Positions 1,704 to 35,662 of a DNA stretch of 64,000 bases are shown here, in pieces. Each line of letters starts with the position of its first letter. Position 1 is the first letter of the stretch. The notes beneath the pieces are model-generated. The model had not been told where the DNA came from. It saw only the letters and a program-made list of their open reading frames with translations, and ran no database searches. Source of the DNA: Alphaproteobacteria bacterium (GTDB lineage Bacteria > Pseudomonadota > Alphaproteobacteria > JAAXGF01); assembly GCA_963555825.3 (NCBI GenBank), contig CAUVXB020000002.1:2336001-2400000 (forward strand), in the 5' to 3' direction. Made by a program: the position numbers and the translations under genes.

Positions 1704-3203
1704 ATGTATCGGGTGGAGTTGTACGCACGGGTTCGGCGGGCGTGTCATGTCGAGGGGATGAGCACCCGCGAGGCCTCGCGGGTGTTTGGTGTAGACCGCA
1801 AGACGGTCCGTAAGATGCTGTCGTTCTCGGTGCCGCCAGGGTATCGCCGAAGCGCGCCGCCGAGGCGGCCAAAGCTGGGTCCGTTCACGGGAATCATCGA
1901 TCGGATCTTGGAAGACGATCGGACCAGCCACCGCAAGCAACGGCACACTGCGAAGCGCATCTTCGACCGCCTCCGGGACGAGTACGGTTTCACGGGCGGC
2001 TACACCATCGTGAAGGACTACGTTCGTGAGCAGGGGCTTCGGTCGCGTGAGGTGTTCGTGCCACTCTCCCATTCCCCCGGTCACGCCCAGGCGGACTTCG
2101 GCGAAGCGATGGCGGTGATCGGCGGCGCGTTACGGAAGATCCACTTCCTTGCCTTCGACCTTCCCCACAGTGATGGTTGCTTTGTTGCGGCCTATCCGGC
2201 GGAGACGACCGAAGCATTCTGCGATGGCCACAACGCGGCGTTTGCCTTCTTCGGCGGCGTCCCCCGATCCATCCTGTACGACAACACCAAGCTGGCGGTT
2301 GCCCGGATCCTGGGCGATGGGAAGCGGCAGCGAACGCGCGTCTTCACGGAGCTTCAGTCCCACTATCTGTTCGAGGACAGGTTCGGCCGGCCGGGCAAGG
2401 GCAACGACAAGGGCAAGGTCGAGGGACTGGTCGGCTTCATCCGGCGGAACTTCCTGGTCCCCGTCCCGCGTGCCGAGAGCTTCGCGGCCCTCAACGATGC
2501 TCTCGCCGAACAGTGCCGCCGGCGCCAGGCGGCGCGGCTGCGGGGCCACAAGGAGACCATCGGCGAGCGTCTCGAGCGGGATCGTCAAGTTCTCTTGCCA
2601 TTGCCGCCTGCTCCCTATGATGCCTGCGATAAGCGCCCTGGACGGGCGAGTTCGCTGTCGCTGGTGCGTTACCGCAGCAACGACTATTCCGTGCCCGTGG
2701 CCTACGGCCACCGTGAGGTGCTCATCCGGGGCTACGTCGATGAGGTGGTGATCAGCTGCGGGGCCGAGGTGATCGCCCGGCACCGCCGGTCCTACGACAG
2801 CGAGGACCTGATCTTCGACCCGCTGCATTACCTGCCCTTGATCGAGCAGAAGATCGGCGCCCTCGACCAGGCCGCGCCGTTGGCGGGCTGGGACCTGCCC
2901 GAGGCCTTCATCACTCTGCGGCGGCTCCTCGAAGCTCGTATGGGCAAGGCAGGCAAGCGCGAGTACGTCCAGGTGCTCCGTCTACTGGAGACCTTCCGGC
3001 TCGAGGAGGTCGAGGGTGCGGTCGGCGACGCCCTGCGGCTCGGCGCAATCGGCTTTGATGCGGTGAAGCACCTGGTACTGTGCCGCATCGAGCGGCGGCC
3101 GCCCAGGCTCAACCTCGACGTCTATCCGTATCTGCCGCGCGCCCGGGTCGCGATGACGTCCGCCAAGTCGTACATGAGCCTGCTGTCGGGGCTCGGCGCA
3201 TGA
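1704..3203 (+). CDS. istA: IS21 transposase IstA
   Basis: N-terminal HTH, QADFG, LYDN, KGKVE DDE motifs. Confidence 0.95.
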   Translation: MYRVELYARVRRACHVEGMSTREASRVFGVDRKTVRKMLSFSVPPGYRRSAPPRRPKLGPFTGIIDRILEDDRTSHRKQRHTAKRIFDRLRDEYGFTGGYTIVKDYVREQGLRSREVFVPLSHSPGHAQADFGEAMAVIGGALRKIHFLAFDLPHSDGCFVAAYPAETTEAFCDGHNAAFAFFGGVPRSILYDNTKLAVARILGDGKRQRTRVFTELQSHYLFEDRFGRPGKGNDKGKVEGLVGFIRRNFLVPVPRAESFAALNDALAEQCRRRQAARLRGHKETIGERLERDRQVLLPLPPAPYDACDKRPGRASSLSLVRYRSNDYSVPVAYGHREVLIRGYVDEVVISCGAEVIARHRRSYDSEDLIFDPLHYLPLIEQKIGALDQAAPLAGWDLPEAFITLRRLLEARMGKAGKREYVQVLRLLETFRLEEVEGAVGDALRLGAIGFDAVKHLVLCRIERRPPRLNLDVYPYLPRARVAMTSAKSYMSLLSGLGA

Positions 3204-3964
3204 CCGACACACCGCAAGTGCTGCTCGCCCACCACCTCAAGACGCTGAAGCTGCCGACCTTCCTGCGCGAGTACGACAAGATCGCCCGGCAGTGCGCCTC
3301 GGAAGGCGTCGATCACGTCCGCTACCTGTTGAGACTCGCCGAGCTCGAGCTGATCGACCGCGAGCGCCGCATGGTCGAGCGGCGCATCAAGGCGGCGCGC
3401 TTCCCCGTGGTCAAGAGCCTCGACAGCTTCGACTTCAAGGTCATCCCCTCGCTCAACAAGGCGCTGGTCCTGGAGCTGGCCCGCTGCGAGTACATCGAGC
3501 GCCGCGAGAACCTCATCGCGCTCGGCAACAGTGGGACCGGCAAGACCCACATCGCCCTCGGTCTCGGCCTGGCGGCCTGCCAGAAGGGCCTCTCGGTCGG
3601 CTTCATCACCGCCGCCGCGCTGGTCCACGAACTCATCGAGGCCCGCGATGACAAGCAGCTGCTGAGGTTCCAGAAGAAGCTCGCCACCTACAAGCTTCTG
3701 ATCGTCGACGAACTCGGCTTCGTGCCGCTGTCGAAGACCGGCGCCGAGCTGTTGTTCGAGGTGTTCAGCCAACGCTACGAGCGGGGCTCGACCCTGGTCA
3801 CCACCAATCTGCCCTTCGACGAATGGACCGAGGTGTTCGGCTCCGAGCGCCTCACCGGCGCGCTCCTCGATCGCCTCACCCACCACGTCAACATCCTCGA
3901 GATGAACGGTGACAGCTACAGGCTCAACCAGAGCCGCAGGCGTCAAACCCCGACTGCTAACTGA
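3200..3964 (+). CDS. istB: IS21 helper ATPase IstB
   Basis: GNSGTGKT Walker A, LLIVDELG Walker B, LLDRLTHH; ATGA overlap with istA. Confidence 0.95.
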   Translation: MTDTPQVLLAHHLKTLKLPTFLREYDKIARQCASEGVDHVRYLLRLAELELIDRERRMVERRIKAARFPVVKSLDSFDFKVIPSLNKALVLELARCEYIERRENLIALGNSGTGKTHIALGLGLAACQKGLSVGFITAAALVHELIEARDDKQLLRFQKKLATYKLLIVDELGFVPLSKTGAELLFEVFSQRYERGSTLVTTNLPFDEWTEVFGSERLTGALLDRLTHHVNILEMNGDSYRLNQSRRRQTPTAN

Positions 3965-5235: not shown

Positions 5236-6746
5236 TGTCTGACGTCAGCGCCTTTGGGATAAATTGAGGTAATTGCATAACGGAGGATTTCTGGCTCATC
5301 GTAGTGACCGAAGGGAACGAAGATGAGACAGAAATCAATGAGCAAGAACGACCCGGCGGAGAGAACGGTTCGGGATATTCGCCGCAAGACACGCAAGCAG
5401 TATACGGCCGAGGAGAAGATCCGGATCGTGGTGTCGGGCCTGCGCGGCGAGGAGAGCATCGCCGCCTTGTGCCGCCGCGAGGGCATCGCCGAGGGTCTGT
5501 ATTACAGCTGGTCGAAAGAGTTTTTGGAAGCGGGCAAGAAGCGGCTCGCCGGCGACACCGGGCGCCAAGCGACCTCGGGCGAGGTTAAAGGCCTGCGCCA
5601 GGAGATGCGCGACTTGAAGGAGTTGGTCGCCGAACTTTCGCTGGAGAACCGGCTTCTCAAAAAAACATGATCGGGCATGGGGGAGACGAGGAATGAGGTA
5701 TCCCGCATCCGAGAAGCTGGAGATCATCCGCCTGGTCGAGCAGTCCCACCTGGGCGTCGGGTCCACTTTGGACAAGCTGGGCATTCCGAAGACCACCTTT
5801 TATCGCTGGTACGATCGCTTTCTGGCCTTTGGCGACGCCGGTCTTGAGGATCGCAACAGCAGCCCGGGCCGGGTGTGGAACCGGATCCCGGATGATGTCC
5901 GGGGGCAGATCATCGATCTTGCCCTGGAGGAGACGCAACTGTCGCCCCGGGAACTGGCCGTCAGGTTTACGGACACCAGGGGCTACTTTGTCTCGGAAGC
6001 CTCGGTTTACCGGCTTCTCAAGGCCCACGACCTGATCACCAGCCCCGCTTTCGTGGTCATCAAGGCAGCCGATGAGTTCCGCGACAAGACCACGGCGCCG
6101 AACCAGCTGTGGCAGACCGACTTCACCTATCTCAAGGTCATCGGCTGGGGCTGGTTTTACCTGTCGACCATCCTGGACGACTATTCCCGCTACATAATTG
6201 CTTGGAAGCTCTGCACCAACATGACGGCGGACGATGTGACGGCAACACTGAAGTTGGCGCTAGAAGCCTCAGGCTGCAATCGCGCCAATGTCGTCCACAA
6301 GCCGAGGCTGCTCAGCGACAACGGCTCGTCCTATATCTCCGGCGATCTGGCTGAATGGCTCGAGGACCACGGTATGGATCACGTTCGGGGCGCACCGTAT
6401 CACCCGCAAACCCAGGGCAAGATCGAGCGCTGGCATCAAACGCTGAAGAACCGGATCCTGCTTGAAAATTATTATCTACCCGGCGATCTCGAAAACCAGA
6501 TCAGCGCCTTCGTCGATCACTACAACAACCAACGCTACCACGAGAGCATCGGCAACGTAACTCCAGCCGACGCCTACTTTGGACGCCACACCGCCATCAT
6601 CGAAAAGAGAAAAAGGATCAAAAAACTGACCACCCAAAACCGCCGCTTGAACCATCAACGCCAAGCGGCTTAACATCAAACAAAGATGAGCCAGATCCTC
6701 CCTTATGAAACACGCTCAACAGTCCCATTTGTTTTGATGACGGACA
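5236..6746 (+). mobile_element. IS3-family element (type A); orfA 5323..5670, orfB 5693..6673
   Basis: Imperfect TGTC... IRs; A-run slippery site CAAAAAAAC at the orfA end; rve DDE motifs WQTDFT, SDNGSSY, GKIERWH. Confidence 0.9.
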
Positions 6747-7838
6747 GTCGCGCACCTCGGTCCAGGGTGCCTGGTTGCCGGGCCGCAGGAGCCCTCGGAC
6801 CTTCAGCTTGAGCCGAGCCACGCTCTTCCTGGACGGGCTCGCCCCCAGATACCAGTGGCCATCCTTGCGAAAGCGCTGCGAGCCGAAGCTATAGCCCAGG
6901 AAGTCGAAGCTCTCCTTGCGGCCATCGCGGACGCTGGTCTTGGCCTCGTTCAGGGTCAGTCCCAGCCGGGTCATCACCTGCCGCGTCCAAGCCAAGGCCT
7001 CCCTCGCGTGTCCGCGACTGAGGATGACAAGGTCATCGGCATAGTTCACCACCTCGGCGCGGAACCTTGTGCCCTGCCCGGTGATCCGCCAGTACTTCAG
7101 AAAGCGGTTCATGTAGAGCGCGGCGAGCAGCGGCGAAACAATCCCGCCTTGCGGGGTTCCCGGTGTGCTCCCCCGGCCGCCCGTCATGCGCCGCTTGCCA
7201 TCCCCGTCGGTCTCCTCGACCGGTGTCTTGAGCCACAATTTGATCAGGCGCAGGACGTTGCGATCGACGATCCGGCGCGCAACCGATTGCATCAGTTCCG
7301 CATGGGAAATCGTATCGAAGTACTTGGACAAATCCGCGTCAACCACGTCCGTGTAGCCGCGACAGAGAAGCTTGTGGACCGCCTGGACGGCATCGCCCGC
7401 AGAGCGTTTCGGTCGGTAGCCATAGGCACTGGGCTCGAGATCGGCCTCGAAGATCGGTTCGATCACGAGCTTGACGGCGCCTTGCACCACCCGGTCCCGG
7501 ATCGTCGGGATGCCGAGCGGTCGTTCGCCGCCGCCGGGCTTTGGGACCATCGCCCGCCGCACCGGCTCAGGTCTGTACGTCTTGGCGCGAAGGTCGTCCC
7601 TGATCCCGGACAGCCACCCCTCCAGCCCCATCGCCTCGATCTCCTCGAAGCTCTGTCCATCCACCCCCGGCGCGCCCTTGTTGGACCGCGCCAGTCGGTA
7701 GGCATGGAACAGGATGTCTTCGCGGTAGACCTTGTCGTAGAGCAGGTAGAAGCGGAAGTCCGGTTCCGCCTTCGCCTTGAGATAGAGCTTCCTCTGGAGA
7801 GTCCGGATCTTTTCAGGTGTTTGCAGGCGCATCGCCAA
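6747..7838 (-). pseudogene. ltrA: Group II intron reverse transcriptase/maturase, C-terminally truncated
   Basis: GAPGVDG, RPLGIPTIRDRVVQ, DADLSKYFDTI, GTPQGG, YADD, FDFLG motifs. Confidence 0.92.
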
Positions 7839-8322
7839 TCACCCCGCCTCCTCTCCGTCAAAAGCGCACCAGAAGTAAGGGTGCTTCCCTCCGCCGGCAT
7901 TACCCGGCATCAACGGTACTATCACCCTTTCCGATTCCCGCCCGCGCCGCCACCCGAGGTGACGTTGAGGCCGCTACCCTCGCCCGCGACGGGCCTCCCC
8001 CGATTACCCGTATCACCTTCCTTGCGTGCCGTGCCCACTACCCCGGCGGACCGGAACGGGTGCATTCGTCGGTTACTCCCCCGTTCCACGCGGCCTTCCC
8101 CTAATCTCAGGAGGGTCGGCGTCCACATCTTCACTTTCGAGGCCTGCTCAGGCTTCACTCGCGTTCGGCCCGCAAGGTCGCTCAACCGCCCAAGGCGGCC
8201 TTTGTCACAGGGCTTCGGTCCCGCCGGTTACCAGACAAGACCGCCTGTCAGCTACCAGATCAAACCGACAACTGTCTGGGTGGATCCTTCCTCCACTGGT
8301 GTTACGCGCCGTCGGGGCGCAC
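6747..8322 (-). mobile_element. Group II intron (IIC-like), 3' part deleted at the IS3 end
   Basis: 5' end GUGCG at 8322; ~480 nt structured leader before the RT ORF; no domain V/VI left. Confidence 0.88.
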
Positions 8323-8338
8323 TGAGAAGTCCGGGATG

Positions 8339-8927
8339 AACGGGTGCTGGCCTTCTACAACGACCGGGGCACAGCCGAGCAGCACATCAAGAAGGGCAAG
8401 TATGCGCTCAAATGGACGCGGCTCTCCTGCATGCGCTTCGCGGCAAACGCCGCTCGTCTCCGCCTTCACGGACTTGCCTACAATCTGGCGAACTTCCTGC
8501 GGACGCTGGCGACGCCCGAGGAGATCGAGCGCTGGTCGCTCACCAGCCTCCACGAACGGCTGATCAAGACCGGCGCCCGGTTGGTGCGCCATGGCCGCTA
8601 CGCCGCGTTCCAGATGGCCGAGGCCTTGCTGCCACGGGCAGTCTTCGCAGGTCTCCACGACCTGATCATTGGACTGCGCGATCCGCCGGCTGGAGCATTG
8701 TCCGCATGATCGAAACCGCGTCCAGAGCGGCGGCACGCACTGATGGTGACGGGAGAGGTGCGACCGGAACATGGCAACATCATGCTCCTCGCGGGCCCTG
8801 GACGGCGTTGGCGCGCTTTCCGACCCCGGCACGGACTATACAACAGGCTGCACGGGCGAATCTCCGCTTGATAATCGCTTTCGTCAGTGGCACGATCACC
8901 GAAGGGAATGCAAATGGGGAATCCTGG
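8339..8927 (+). pseudogene. IS1380-family remnant (transposase 3' end plus right terminus)
   Basis: FYNDRGTAEQHIK...LAYNLANFLR matches the C-terminus of 15899..17257; end TGGGGAATCCTGG resembles the IS1380 IRs in this window. Confidence 0.85.
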
Positions 8928-9002
8928 CTGACATGACTCACCGCGAATCCGAAACTCGGGCTTGCAAGAAATCAGTCGTTGGACAAAGGGAGGACATACC
9001 TG

Positions 9003-10190
9003 ATGCAAACAACAAAGATGAGACTTCATCGTCGTGATTTTCTGAAGGCTTCGACCGCTGCCTCGACAGCCGCGGCATTCGGAGCATTTGCTCTGGCCGG
9101 GAACGGGGCCGCCATTGCGGCAACACAAGCCACCGATAAAAGCGGGTCAATGATGGTTGCCCAGGCGTCGATGACCGAAGGGGACATCGCCGCTCTTCCG
9201 CGCTTCAAGCTTGATCTTGTCGCCCCGCCTTTCGTTCCAAAGCACGATCAGGTCGCATCCGGCGGGCCGAAGGTGGTCGAAGTCACAATGACCGCTAAAG
9301 AGATGCGTTGGACTGTCGATGACGGAGGCGCCGAAATCTGGGCCAGTACATTCGACGGTTCTATTCCCGGTCCGCTGATCGTCTGCCATCAGGACGACTA
9401 CATCGAGTTGACGCTCAAGAACCCGGCGGAAAACTTGATGGAGCACAATATCGATTTCCACGCATCCACGGGCGCACTGGGCGGTGGAGGGCTGACGCTC
9501 ATCGGTCCCGGTGAGGAGACAGTGTTGCGCTTCAAAGCCACGAAGCCGGGCGTCTTCATCTATCACTGCGCCCCTGGCGGCCAGATGATTCCCTATCACG
9601 TCGTGCATGGGATGAACGGCGCCATCATGGTCCTGCCCCGCGAAGGTCTGACCGACGGGAAAGGCGGTCTGCTCTCTTATGACCGCGCATACTATGTCGG
9701 AGAGCAGGATTTCTATATCCCGAAGGATGAAAACGACGACTGGAAAGTCTACGACGGAATGGCCGAGAACTTCGGCGACGTCTTTCCGATCATGCGCTCT
9801 CTGGTTCCGACCCATCTCGTGTTCAACGGCAAGGTCGGTGCCTTGACAGGCGACGGCGCCATGAAGGCGGCCGTCGGTGAGACCGTGTTGTTCATCCACT
9901 CACAAGCCAACCGTGACTCGCGCCCGCATCTGATCGGTGGTCACGGCGACTATGTTTGGGAAAACGGCTCTTTCGCCGATGCGCCGGCGACCGGTCTCGA
10001 AACCTGGTTTATCCGCGGAGGCTCGGCGGGCGCAGCGATGTACACTTTCCGTCAACCGGGAGTGTACGCTTACCTGAACCACAACCTCATCGAGGCGGTT
10101 GAACTAGGCGCTTTGTCGCATGTCGTCGTCGAGGGTGAGTGGGACGACAACTTGATGAAACAGGTGAAAAAGGCAACTAAAATGCCTTGA
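9003..10190 (+). CDS. nirK: Copper-containing nitrite reductase (NO-forming), Tat-exported
   Basis: RRDFLK Tat motif; [31 protein letters not shown] Cu ligands; GGAGG RBS. Confidence 0.96.
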
Positions 10191-10259
10191 TGCGTGCCTA
10201 TCCGCTTTACGCATACACACACTAGGGGTAGATTGTGTGCGTAAAATGGCGGGTCAAAC

Positions 10260-10286
10260 TCGGATTTCTCACCGGATTTCTCACCG
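10260..10286. repeat. Tandem 12-mer (C/T)CGGATTTCTCA x2 followed by an AT-rich tract
   Basis: Direct reading; same core as the MITE TIR at 34850. Confidence 0.7.
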
Positions 10287-15699: not shown

Positions 15700-17343
15700 T
15701 CCGACATTCCCCAGATGATATCCAAATTCGCGGAAATCGTACCACGGCCCCATCTCCAAGGGAACTCTGTTCCCATTGCAGCCATCCGATGACATGATTT
15801 TGGTAATCGGCCAGCGCGTGGAAGGCCATTTGGTCGTTTCTCTTGCCATCCAGACACACCTCTCGTGTCGCAATCTCCTTGCCGTCGATTCCCTCGGCCT
15901 ACGCCGGAGCGGGTCTTCGTCGTAGATCATCAATCAGGCTCAAGATTTTCTGGAACAAGCTTCTGGTGACTGCAACCTCGGCCAATTGAAATGTGACGTA
16001 CCGGCCATGGCTGACAACTTTCGCACCGATCTTGACCAGCTTCTCCCTCAGCGTCGTCAGCGACCATTGCTCCACGGCATCGGGCAACGCCAGGGTACGC
16101 ATGAAGTTGCCGAGGTTATAGGCGAGTGCATGCAGCTGGAGCCGGACGGCATTGTTGCGTAACGAACGGCATGACAGCCGCGTCCACTTGATGGCGTTCT
16201 TGCCTTCCTTGATCCATTGCTCGGCAGTGCCGCGCTGATTGTAGAACGCAACAACCCGCTCGGCAGGACGGCTCAGGTTGGTGACGATGAAGCCGACGCG
16301 GGGATACAGTTCCCCTGAGTGCCACTCCACCTTGGCGACGACCCGGCGGGGCTTCGTCCAGCTACCGGCCCGATAGCTGAAGTTCGCGTAATACCGACGA
16401 ACTTCCTTCGGCGGCCGACCGACGGGGCGCTTGAGCAGGTGCGCGATGCTGTCGTGCAGCACCTTGTTGGCCGGAAGCCGGATGGCGTACTTGAAGCCTT
16501 CCGCTTCCAGAAACTCATAAACCTCGGGCGAGGCGAAGGCGGCGTCACCACGGAAATAACGCCGGAGTGTCTTGTTCCGGTATCGAGCGACCACCGGGTC
16601 CAACACATCGCGCCATTCATGGGCGCTGTGCACGTTGCCCGGACGCAGGGCGCAACGCTCCAGATCGCCGAACTGGTTGAACACGAACAGCGGGTGATAG
16701 CACGTGCAGCCGAAGTGACCGTTGTAGGCCGTGCCCTCCTGGTCACCGTAGGTCGGGCTGACGGAGCTGTCCATGTCGAGCACGATAATCTTCGGCGGCT
16801 TGCGCTCGTTAACCTGGTCGATCCAGATGCCCAAAAGGTCAGCGAGCGCGGCGAGGTTGTCATTGGTGGCGAGTAACTCCGTCTCGAACCGGCCCATCTG
16901 GCTGGTCGATGCGCCGCCGCGCTCGACAGCCCTGCCGCCGACGATCCACCGCATCGCAGGATCGCGCCCCAGCCGGTCGGCGTCGTTCACGTCCTCGTAC
17001 CCGGCGAGACGACCATAGACGGATTGGCGAAGGAGACCGATGATGCCGTGCCAACCGTTCTTGCCGGTCCGGCTGTCAGCAATAACGTCACCGGCCAGCG
17101 TGGTCAGGCCGAGGGCTTCGTCCAGTTCACGATAGGCGAGCAGACCAGCGTCTGACGTGATCCGCGAACCGTGGAACTCGAACTTCAGTCTTCGGTCGAA
17201 AAACGCCCGCAGAAGCCCCCGATCCGACTCACCCTCCAGGTTCCGCATTCGACCCACCCTCCGTCTGATCTAATCCACTGATTCTTATACAGGAATCAGA
17301 CGGAAACCGCATCAGATGGATCGGTCACTTGGGGAATGCGGGG
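15700..17343 (-). mobile_element. IS1380-family element; transposase 15899..17257
   Basis: IRs with CATTCCCCA core; TTAA duplication (15696-15699, 17344-17347); intact 452-aa DDE ORF. Confidence 0.93.
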
Positions 17344-34486: not shown

Positions 34487-35662
34487 ATGGCGGAGCACAC
34501 GTCGACCTTCGGGTCATCGGCGTATGGCGGCGGCGGCTGGTCGGAGCGGATCCGGGCGCATCGCGAAGAGATCGGCGATCTGTGGACCGATTGCGGCATC
34601 GACAACGAATGGTCGCGCCTGCGCGCCGTCCTGCTGCACCGGCCGGGCGACGAGTTGGCGGCGTCGGCCGACGAGCATGACGCGATGGCCGAGGCGTTCC
34701 GCGCCAACGGCGTCACCGTGCATTACGTCGAACCCGATGGCCCGCCCTCGCCGAACCAGATGTTCTGCGCCGATCTGATGTTCATGACGCCCGAGGGCGT
34801 GATCGTCGCGCGCCCCGCGTCGACCGTGCGCGCCGGCGAGGAGCGTTAGCCCGGATTTCTCACCATGGACAGGCGCGTCATCGCGCCGCGCGGTCGCTGA
34901 TCCGCCAGGAGAAGGCCGCCGAGCGTGGCCTGGGCCACGGTCAAGGCCTTCGACGCCGCGGGCGGCCCGCCCGGCGCGACCCGAAGGGCGGCGGATCTCG
35001 GACGACAGGCGGCGTCAAAGCGTTTGCCCGATGCGACAGCATCGCGCCGCACGCTTTTCCTAGCCTGTCGTCCGATATCCGCCGTGCCGCACCTGTCCAT
35101 GGTGAGAATTCCGGGCTAGGTGGCGCGCCGCATCGCCGAGCGGGGCATGCCGATCCTGCGCACGCTGCGCGGGCGCGCCACCTTCGAGGGCGCGGATGCC
35201 ATGTGGCTCGACGCCGAGACGGTCATCATCGGACGCGGCCTGCGCACCAATTCCGAGGCGATCGACCAGATCACCGGGCTGCTCGCCGAGATGGGCGTCG
35301 CCACCATCGCCGTCGACATGCCGTTCGGCACGATGCATCTGATGGGCATGCTGCGCGTCGCCGATAAGGACCTGGCGATCGCCTGGCCGCGCCGCACGCC
35401 GCACGCCGCGGTGCTCGCGCTGCGCGAGCGCGGCTACCGGGTCGCCTTCCTGCCCGAGACCGACGACGACGCCATGAACCGGGCGCTCAACACCGTCACG
35501 CTGGGGCTGCGCAAGATCTTGGTCAACGCCGGCTACGACGTCATCCAGGCGTTCTACGAAGGGCTCAGCATCGAGTGTGTCACGGTGCACGCGCGCGAAC
35601 TCGTCAAGGCGGCCGGCGGCTTCGGCTGCCTGGCCGGCGTGCTGCACCGCGACCCGGTCTAG
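34487..35662 (+). pseudogene. Amidinotransferase/dimethylargininase-family gene interrupted by a MITE at an in-frame TAG
   Basis: LLHRPG, NQMFCAD, RAGEER, FEGAD, MHLMG, GGFGCL motifs across the two halves. Confidence 0.88.
34850..35115. mobile_element. 266-bp MITE with 24-bp TIRs
   Basis: CCCGGA(T/A)TTCTCACCATGGACAGG at both ends; TTAG/CTAG flanks; internal hairpins such as CGTGGCCTGGGCCACG. Confidence 0.88.

What the first reader, a model, noticed from the sequence alone, without database searches (positions are those of the whole stretch)
8095..8340. Group II intron inserted inside a transposon terminal inverted repeat, with a matching EBS1
Seen: on the minus strand the 5' exon reads CCCGGACTTCTCA|GUGCG. 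These 13 nt match the first 13 nt of the MITE TIR at 34850 (CCCGGATTTCTCA) at 12 of 13 positions and do not fit the IS1380 coding frame next to them. A stem-loop in the intron (GCCGACCCUC-CUGAGAUUA-GGGGAAGGC, ~8093-8120) exposes UGAGA, exactly complementary to the exon end TCTCA. Known: IIC introns use a short EBS1 plus a DNA structure (terminators, attC sites). Inference: this lineage homes to IS/MITE ends and could be moved in trans as an intron-in-MITE composite.
Basis: partly seen in the sequence, partly recalled or inferred. Interest (0 to 1): 0.75.

Follow-up and report, generated by a model that had tools for sequence, protein, structure and literature searches.

The report
Dead intron in a transposon end
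A broken, truncated group II intron sits 13 bases inside the terminal inverted repeat of a small transposon, and its relatives in many bacteria sit at the same spot, so this intron family makes its living by homing into transposon ends, a habit already described once for a different intron (RmInt2).

Summary
On the minus strand an intron starts GTGCG at 8322. The 13 nt before it (8335-8323) equal the tip of a MITE inverted repeat. This 13-mer occurs 16 times in the genome: 15 are MITE tips and the 16th is this exon (0.25 expected).

Over 47 distinct exon contexts it pairs with exon -1 to -5 in 96-100% of cases. There are 22 different EBS1 words, and 0 of 2000 shuffles reach the observed pairing.

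Of 54 homologous junctions, 28 are repeat-tip-like: usually YTAR, then 12-15 nt beginning CC, then the intron. Hosts are MITEs and full IS1380- or IS5-type elements. Empty and occupied MITE copies coexist in one genome.

The window copy is dead. It is cut at 6747 beside an IS3-family element, and the genome holds no domain V/VI.

It is not IIC. I found no EBS2, and no evidence for movement as a MITE-intron composite.

There is a published precedent: RmInt2 in the ISRm17 inverted repeats (PMC4615759). That is another intron class, with 36-39% protein identity to this one. I rate this a new variant of a known kind.

The parts
8323..8335 (-). 13-nt tip of an IS5/IS1380-type terminal inverted repeat, serving as the 5' exon. 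IBS1 is the last 5 nt (TCTCA, 8327-8323).
   Evidence: sequence; the exact 13-mer occurs 16 times in the genome, 15 of them at MITE tips; 12 of 13 match to the MITE at 34850.
6747..8322 (-). Truncated group II intron: the 5' 1576 nt, covering domains I-III and most of the RT part of domain IV. Domain X end, domain V and domain VI are missing.
   Evidence: Rfam RF02003, 92.2 bits; 99% identity to L013 intron positions 1-1572 and 97% to L076 positions 1-1600, with no 3' part anywhere in the genome; 5' end shared with more than 50 homologues.
8159..8298 (-). Rfam group-II-D1D4-4 match inside domain I.
   Evidence: 92.2 bits against a gathering score of 49, E = 4.6e-19.
8092..8120 (-). EBS1 hairpin. 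EBS1 is intron 214-220, window 8109-8103 (UGAGAUU).
   Evidence: RNAalifold hairpin; pairing 1.00, 1.00, 0.96, 0.96, 0.98 with exon -1 to -5; shuffle control.
6747..7832 (-). Truncated intron-encoded reverse transcriptase ORF. The ATG is at 7832, with an in-frame TTG at 7838. It is cut after about 362 of about 440 residues.
   Evidence: RVT_1, E = 2.8e-33; the full-length relative is 439 aa with RVT_1 and GIIM and no endonuclease domain; annotated ltrA genes start 6 nt after the match start.
5236..6746 (+). IS3-family insertion sequence that abuts the truncated intron (orfA 5323-5670, orfB 5693-6673). Ends are TG...CA, flanked by GTC on both sides.
   Evidence: HTH_Tnp_1 and rve. IS3 family at 188 bits against a cut-off of 160; ends read by eye.
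8336..8709 (+). C-terminal fragment of a divergent IS1380-family transposase gene, antisense to the intron. It lies outside the element that owned the 13-nt repeat tip.
   Evidence: DDE_Tnp_1_4, E = 6.1e-30, profile positions 318-428 of 435. IS1380 model; homology starts at residue 5.
34850..35115 (+). Intact 266-bp MITE of the same repeat family. It is flanked by TTAG and CTAG. Its two unoccupied repeat tips are potential homing sites.
   Evidence: 136 repeat hits in the genome, mostly in pairs 266 or about 533 bp apart.

Best explanation
A MITE or IS whose inverted repeat begins CCCGGAnTTCTCA once lay next to, or landed in, an old IS1380 copy. An endonuclease-less, IIB-like group II intron then retrohomed into that repeat, 13 nt from its tip. 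It read the last 5 nt (TCTCA) with its EBS1 loop (UGAGA).

Later the intron was truncated. An IS3-family element now abuts the break. The 3' 350 nt of the intron and the rest of the host element are gone, so this copy can neither splice nor move.

Shown: the identity of the 13 nt as a repeat tip; the EBS1-IBS1 pairing; the same insertion geometry in many relatives; clean empty and occupied sites in another genome; and the truncation.

Inferred: that the insertion happened by retrohoming at a replication fork, as for other endonuclease-less introns; that positions -8 to -17 (YTAR plus CCCG) are read by the intron protein or not at all, since no EBS2 was found; and that splitting the repeat disables that end of the host transposon.
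For: (1) The 13-mer is a MITE tip in 15 of its 15 other occurrences in the genome, with 0.25 expected.

(2) IS1380 homology stops at the 13 nt.

(3) EBS1 covaries with the exon. Over 47 distinct exon contexts and 22 EBS1 words, a mean of 6.28 of 7 positions pair. The shuffled mean is 3.59 (sd 0.23, maximum 4.34), and 0 of 2000 shuffles reach the observed value. Per-position pairing for -1 to -5 is 1.00, 1.00, 0.96, 0.96, 0.98.

(4) Closest relatives:
- L076 (97-98.6% identical) sits between CTAG+CCCGGATTTCTCA and the rest of a roughly 210-bp MITE that ends TGAGAAATCCGGG+CTAG.
- L013 (99%) follows CTAG+CCTGGAAATTCTTA.

(5) Junction counts. 28 of 54 junctions in the tree set are repeat-tip-like. 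In a second set of 16 junctions backed by at least 5 EBS1 pairs, 4 more are YTAR+CC and 2 are CC-like, reaching down to 57% protein identity (L087).

(6) Host elements:
- A full IS1380-family element in L014 (553 bits) and a split IS1380-family transposase ORF in L034.
- An annotated IS5-family transposase beside the R. leguminosarum copy.
- MITEs in L042, L043, L046, L047, L054 and L076.

(7) In genome G013, 26 of 30 MITE copies examined are empty (CTAGCCCGCATTTCTCA directly followed by CCGCC...). The other 4 carry the intron exactly between those two words.

(8) Both repeats of the element are used (L042 against L047).

(9) The intron protein has RVT_1 and GIIM only.

(10) The truncation is shown.
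Against: - The flank outside the 13 nt is TCAT, not the usual YTAR. No target duplication or element remainder survives here, so the host element in this window is inferred from 13 nt only.
- 26 of 54 homologous junctions are not repeat-tip-like, so repeat homing is not universal in the family.
- Only 5 of 7 EBS1 positions pair in this clade.
- No EBS2 or EBS3 partner could be identified, so most of the target recognition is unexplained.
- Junctions were obtained for only part of the 80 loci fetched, and those 80 were the best of 556 relatives.
- No mobility or splicing data exist for any member.
Confidence: 0.85

Rival explanations
1. The intron did not home here. A MITE that already carried the intron was moved to this site as a DNA composite by the transposase, which is the reader's 'moved in trans' idea.
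For: The intron and the repeat tip are joined exactly as in MITE-borne copies elsewhere. L042 and L043 are two identical MITE+intron units at different sites, each flanked by CTAG.
Against: - The insertion leaves only 13 nt of a 24-nt repeat at the tip, which should impair transposase binding (inference).
- Six near-identical introns in one genome (L045, L046, L048, L049, L050, L055) have six different 3' exons.
- The same intron variant occupies left and right repeats in G013.
- Empty MITEs identical to the occupied ones exist, so identical units are equally explained by homing.
- The flank here is TCAT, not YTAR.
Confidence: 0.07
2. Chance or ectopic event: the intron retrotransposed into the IS1380 gene at a site that merely resembles the repeat.
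For: Endonuclease-less introns do insert ectopically with short IBS1 matches (general knowledge). The reading frame stays open through the 12 nt. The window-level motif count is not significant.
Against: - A 13 of 13 match to a word that is otherwise found only at MITE tips.
- None of 58 IS1380 copies has this sequence at the aligned position.
- Close relatives sit in true repeats.
Confidence: 0.03
3. IIC-like, structure-guided targeting: the intron recognises a DNA hairpin (for example a MITE folded on its repeats in single-stranded DNA) plus a short EBS1, rather than sequence.
For: No EBS2 pairing is detectable. In the non-repeat sub-lineages the insertion point lies in the loop of short palindromes, for example ATGTC...TGGCA|C...GACAT.
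Against: - Repeat-tip sites have no local hairpin.
- Full-length IS elements of 1.6 kb and sites without any downstream element (L013, L050) are also used.
- The ribozyme matches Rfam D1D4-4, and domain V of relatives has AGC. The rule that IIC has CGC is recalled, not tested.
Confidence: 0.05

Closest known systems
RmInt2 of Sinorhizobium meliloti GR4, which homes into the inverted repeats of ISRm17 (Martinez-Rodriguez et al. 2014, PMC4615759; passages read)
   Same: - It is an endonuclease-less group II intron inserted inside IS terminal inverted repeats, giving two sites per element on opposite strands.
- In pRmeGR4c the copy L131 reads CTAG + 12 nt | GTGTG. That is almost the same geometry as CTAG + 13 nt | GTGCG here.
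- Head-to-tail tandem copies are reported for RmInt2 and are seen here in L033.
   Different: - The intron class differs: 36-39% protein identity, and Rfam D1D4-2 against D1D4-4.
- RmInt2 has an experimentally defined EBS2 (GAACU pairing with -14 to -10). None is detectable here.
- The targets here include MITEs and IS1380- and IS5-type elements in several phyla, not one IS in one strain.
RmInt1 in ISRm2011-2 (class D / IIB3)
   Same: It is an endonuclease-less intron that lives in a multicopy IS.
   Different: It targets the transposase gene, not the repeat. It uses EBS1, EBS2 and EBS3. Its protein is distantly related.
Group IIC introns (terminator or attC targeting)
   Same: They have a short EBS1, no EBS2 and no endonuclease domain, and they target multicopy non-coding motifs.
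   Different: There is no upstream hairpin at repeat-tip sites. The ribozyme here is larger and IIB-like: 484 nt precede the ORF. Domain V of relatives carries AGC.
Class F group II introns (for example Ni.ha.I1 and So.us.I2; Toro and Martinez-Abarca 2013, PMC3552965, passages read)
   Same: - The protein is RT/maturase only, and the class is described as having IIB-like RNA.
- The protein here is 70% identical to an intron on N. hamburgensis X14 plasmid 1.
- Many relatives are in Bryobacterales.
   Different: Class membership was not tested here, because no reference class F sequences were at hand. The passages I read say nothing about target sites.

Membership tests
Bacterial ORF-containing group II intron | 5' GUGYG and a domain I-IV ribozyme fold | tested here: met
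   GTGCG lies at 8322-8318. RF02003 scores 92.2 bits. RNAalifold folds the first 484 nt.
Bacterial ORF-containing group II intron | Intron-encoded RT/maturase in domain IV | tested here: met
   RVT_1 has E = 2.8e-33 on the truncated ORF. The full relative scores 370 bits on TIGR04416 against a cut-off of 300.
Bacterial ORF-containing group II intron | Domains V and VI and a 3' splice site | tested here: not met
   They are absent from the window and from the whole genome. They are present in relatives: RF00029 reached threshold in 4 of 5 loci scanned, and L076 did not reach it. This is a truncated relic of a member.
Bacterial ORF-containing group II intron | EBS1-IBS1 pairing with the 5' exon | tested here: met
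Group IIC (class C) | Insertion just downstream of a terminator or attC hairpin | tested here: not met
   The 5' flanks of repeat-tip sites are YTAR + CCCG followed by unrelated sequence.
Group IIC (class C) | No EBS2-IBS2 pairing | tested here: met
   The best 4-5 bp block upstream of -6 pairs in at most 72% of 46 contexts. The loops inspected do not covary.
Group IIC (class C) | Small IIC ribozyme with a CGC triad in domain V (rule recalled) | tested here: not met
   Domain V of L013, L034 and L042 begins (A/G)AGCCGG. 484 nt precede the ORF.
Class D (RmInt1/RmInt2) | Close protein and ribozyme relationship | tested here: not met
   Protein identity is 36-39%. The Rfam match is D1D4-2 against D1D4-4.
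Class F | Placement in a tree with named class F proteins | not tested
   There is only an indirect lead.
IS5/IS1380-type terminal inverted repeat (identity of the 13 nt) | Sequence equals the element tip | tested here: met
IS5/IS1380-type terminal inverted repeat (identity of the 13 nt) | YTAR flank or target duplication, and a partner repeat | tested here: not met
   The flank is TCAT, and the inner part of the element is lost.

The most novel reading that the evidence does not exclude
A whole endonuclease-less intron family (Rfam D1D4-4, probably class F) is a dedicated hyperparasite of DDE transposon ends in at least five phyla. It finds the tip of IS5- and IS1380-type inverted repeats and their MITEs with EBS1 alone. 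EBS1 co-evolves with the repeat variant, with no EBS2. By splitting the repeat it disables that transposon end. Derived branches have switched to other multicopy palindromic repeats.
Probability: 0.45. Interest if true: 0.6.

Novelty: new variant of a known kind. Interest (0 to 1): 0.45.

Why it matters
Homing of a group II intron into IS inverted repeats has been shown for one intron in one strain (RmInt2/ISRm17). This work suggests the habit is old and widespread in a different intron class, that it extends to MITEs, and that it works with EBS1 only.

Three questions become testable:
- How an intron lacking both EBS2 and an endonuclease reads about 17 nt of target.
- Whether intron insertion kills the host transposon, which would be a parasite-on-parasite interaction.
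- How EBS1 tracks repeat variants.

It also has a practical use. A 13-nt orphan repeat tip next to GTGCG is a marker for annotating such relics. The copy in this window has no function left.

Tried and rejected
- EBS2 search. I tried mutual information of exon -8 to -16 against all intron columns, 6-mer complement scans, helix-block scans and inspection of the 128-134 loop. None gave a consistent partner.
- EBS3 search. Covariation of +1 to +3 found no partner. Position +1 is a pyrimidine in 34 of 35 cases, which an invariant G could explain.
- Closer IS1380 relatives, to fix the breakpoint. None turned up in 13 genomes of the family. The best plasmid relative is 70% identical and aligns from residue 5.
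- The remainder of the intron or of the IS1380 gene elsewhere in the window or genome. None was found.
- Class assignment from the literature. Simon et al. 2008 (PMC2525955) is not held, and supplements are closed, so the class F label remains a lead.
- Prior descriptions in print. Searches found only RmInt2/ISRm17 for homing into inverted repeats, and nothing on group II introns in MITE repeats. Subscription journals are not covered.
- The other end of the IS5-type element in L136 could not be defined cleanly.
- A strand bias relative to replication was not tested.

Full report
WHAT IS IN THE WINDOW

On the minus strand a group II intron begins with GTGCG at 8322. Rfam places group-II-D1D4-4 at 8298-8159 (92.2 bits against a gathering score of 49). 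An RT ORF follows (RVT_1, E = 2.8e-33). Its ATG is at 7832.

The intron is 99% identical to positions 1-1572 of a full-length relative (L013) and 97% identical to positions 1-1600 of another (L076). It ends at 6747. No further piece exists in the window or in the 6.04-Mb genome, apart from an unrelated 126-nt fragment on the other part of contig 2. Domain X end, domain V and domain VI are therefore missing, and the copy is dead.

An IS3-family element occupies 5236-6746 and abuts the break. It is flanked by GTC on both sides. However, the sequence beyond it is not intron, so the truncation may predate that insertion.

Upstream of the intron, on the plus strand, lies the C-terminal 127 residues of an IS1380-family transposase (8326-8709; DDE_Tnp_1_4 profile 318-428 of 435).

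THE 13 NT

The exon word CCCGGACTTCTCA matches the two repeats of the 266-bp MITE at 34850-35115 in 12 of 13 positions each. Within the window this is not significant by itself: 5 matches at up to 2 mismatches against 1.81 expected, and 6 of 100 shuffles do as well.

In the whole genome the exact word occurs 16 times against 0.25 expected. Fifteen are tips of this MITE family, followed by C[C/T]ATGGA.... The sixteenth is the intron's exon. The MITE family gives 136 repeat hits at up to 5 mismatches, mostly in pairs 266 or about 533 bp apart and nearly always preceded by CTAG, TTAG or CTAA.

The IS1380 reading frame stays open through 12 of the 13 nt (EVRD after a TGA), but homology ends there. 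58 IS1380 copies of this genome read ..TNLSRP[A/T][E/K]RVVAFYN where this one reads *EVRDERVLAFYN. The nearest outside relative (70% identity) also aligns only from residue 5. The 13 nt point inward toward the intron. The IS1380 fragment therefore lies outside the element that owned the repeat. The flank TCAT is not the usual YTAR, and nothing of the element's interior survives.

EBS1

I fetched 80 loci encoding related proteins (55-98% identity), the best of 556 confirmed relatives. I located 5' junctions wherever a blastn alignment of the first 484 intron nt began at position 1.

In a MAFFT alignment the loop of the hairpin at intron 203-231 (window 8120-8092) covaries with the last exon bases. 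Over 47 distinct exon contexts, exon -1 to -5 pair with intron 214-218 in 100, 100, 96, 96 and 98% of cases. Positions -6 and -7 pair in 62 and 81%.

There are 22 different EBS1 heptamers. On average 6.28 of 7 positions pair. The shuffled mean is 3.59 (sd 0.23, maximum 4.34), and 0 of 2000 shuffles reach the observed value. Two contexts pair poorly: L066, where the alignment has a gap, and L084.

In the window's own clade only 5 positions pair (UGAGA with UCUCA). RNAalifold on 44 sequences draws the hairpin with a 12-nt loop.

NO EBS2 FOUND

Four approaches gave no consistent partner for exon -8 to -16:
- Mutual information against all intron columns.
- Complement scans.
- Helix-block scans, where the best block paired in 72% of contexts.
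- Inspection of candidate loops.

The first 3'-exon base is a pyrimidine in 34 of 35 contexts, and no covarying EBS3 was found. How the distal target is read is therefore unknown. By analogy with RmInt1 and RmInt2, where the protein reads distal 5'-exon bases (PMC4615759, passages read), I infer protein contacts.

WHERE THE RELATIVES SIT

- L076 (97-98.6% identical) lies between CTAG+CCCGGATTTCTCA and the rest of a roughly 210-bp MITE that ends with the inverted tip plus CTAG.
- L013 (99%) follows CTAG+CCTGGAAATTCTTA but has no element downstream.
- In two Bryobacterales genomes, ten copies follow YTAR+CCCGC[A/T]TTTCTCA. Several are inside 177-190-bp MITEs with YTAR on both sides. L042 and L043 use one repeat and L047 and L054 use the other.
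- L014 is in the left repeat of a complete IS1380-family element (transposase 553 bits; inverted tip 1598 nt downstream). L034 likewise precedes a split IS1380-family transposase ORF.
- In cultured strains, a Rhizobium leguminosarum plasmid copy follows TTAG+CCCGCATATCTCA and is followed by an annotated IS5-family transposase gene. A Polymorphobacter plasmid copy is bracketed by CTAG+tip and inverted tip+CTAG about 1.6 kb apart.
- In this genome the MITE's likely parent is a 1732-bp element at C1:2279588-2281319. It encodes a DUF772 + DDE_Tnp_1 transposase, IS5/IS1182-like and below NCBIfam cut-offs. The resident IS1380 copies have similar tips (CCCGCATTTCCCA).

Counts. Of 54 junctions in the tree set:
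- 21 are YTAR + CC...
- 5 are CC-like without YTAR. The window is one of these.
- 2 are YTAR with another tip.
- 26 are something else.

Four of these are YTAR+CC (L024, L025, L071 and L087, the last at 57% protein identity). Two are CC-like. About ten loci gave no junction.

On a quick maximum-likelihood tree, repeat-tip targets are spread over most clades. The 'other' targets concentrate in a derived clade of 15. The tree is unrooted and many forks are weak.

HOMING OR COMPOSITE TRANSPOSITION

In genome G013 at least 40 MITE copies are 96-100% identical. Of the 30 fetched, 26 are empty: the tip is directly followed by the inner repeat. The other 4 carry the intron exactly between the two, with no duplication or loss.

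The same intron variant occupies left and right repeats. In the other Bryobacterales genome, six near-identical introns have six different 3' exons. This is what retrohoming predicts. A DNA composite would keep its 3' exon. The composite idea is not excluded for single cases (L042 and L043 are identical units), but nothing requires it.

WHAT IT IS NOT, AND WHAT IS KNOWN

The full-length protein (439 aa) has RVT_1 and GIIM and no endonuclease domain. The ribozyme is not IIC-like in size, and domain V of relatives carries AGC (the IIC rule is recalled).

A published precedent exists. RmInt2 of S. meliloti GR4 lies in the inverted repeats of ISRm17, and the authors note that this doubles the sites and guarantees one on the lagging strand (PMC4615759; passages read). 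I found those copies on pRmeGR4c. L131 reads CTAG + 12 nt | GTGTG. However, RmInt1 and RmInt2 proteins are only 36-39% identical to this lineage, and their ribozyme matches Rfam D1D4-2.

The lineage here is probably class F. It is 70% identical to a Nitrobacter hamburgensis plasmid intron, and Ni.ha.I1 and So.us.I2 are listed as class F in PMC3552965 (passages read). I did not test this.

Literature searches found no report of group II introns in MITE repeats, and none of this habit outside RmInt2. The 2008 paper that defined class F is not held, and supplements were closed.

VERDICT

The IIC analogy and the composite idea are not supported. The window copy is a relic.

The phenomenon is a new variant of a known kind: the same trick as RmInt2, but in another intron class, on MITEs and two IS families, across several phyla, and apparently without EBS2.

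Noticed in passing
L033:57-4632 (Bradyrhizobium genosp. P chromosome): Three head-to-tail intron copies follow each other directly (57-1982, 1983-3908, 3909 onward). The 3' end of one abuts the GTGCG of the next. PMC4615759 reports head-to-tail products for RmInt2.
   Followed up: no
L027, L029, L035, L052, L057; L028, L031, L037: The non-repeat sub-lineages sit in the loop of short palindromes, for example ATGTC..TGGCA|C..GACAT and CGACG..TGACC|C..CGTCG. These look like REP-type repeats, so the family seems to favour multicopy repeats in general.
   Followed up: partly
window 10259-10283 (+): A tandem 12-nt duplication (CGGATTTCTCAC twice) resembles the repeat tip. It lies just downstream of the ORF at 8979-10190 and may be a repeat-tip remnant.
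   Followed up: no
window 34850-35115: The intact MITE appears to lie inside coding sequence. The flanks on both sides read like one interrupted gene, and the left flank ends in TTAG, which creates a stop.
   Followed up: no
whole genome G000: The genome is very rich in mobile DNA: 65 tblastn hits to the IS1380 C-terminus, including a 34-copy family, and 136 hits to the MITE repeat at up to 5 mismatches (mostly paired 266 or about 533 bp apart). Left and right flanks of two IS1380 copies (C1:308178 and C1:424847) look exchanged, which suggests recombination between copies.
   Followed up: no
L076:3001-4397; L013:3001-4182: The two closest relatives of the window's intron are also decaying. The L076 protein is frameshifted and carries a 29-nt internal duplication. 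The L013 ORF stops early at 393 aa.
   Followed up: partly
G000:C2:3467051-3467176 (L002): A 126-nt fragment 84% identical to intron positions 372-497 is a second, older intron relic.
   Followed up: no
window 5236-6746: The IS3-family element is flanked by GTC on both sides, like a 3-bp target duplication. Yet the sequence beyond it does not continue the intron. Either the intron was already truncated at that exact point or the match is chance.
   Followed up: no
window 15902-16696 (-): This is another IS1380 copy, 81% identical at protein level to the main family. It is unrelated to the fragment at 8336-8709.
   Followed up: no
L131 (S. meliloti GR4 pRmeGR4c): The ISRm17 tip next to RmInt2 (GCCCGTCCATAG) resembles the reverse complement of the inner part of this genome's MITE repeat (CCTGTCCATGG) in 9 of 11 positions. 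This may be chance.
   Followed up: no
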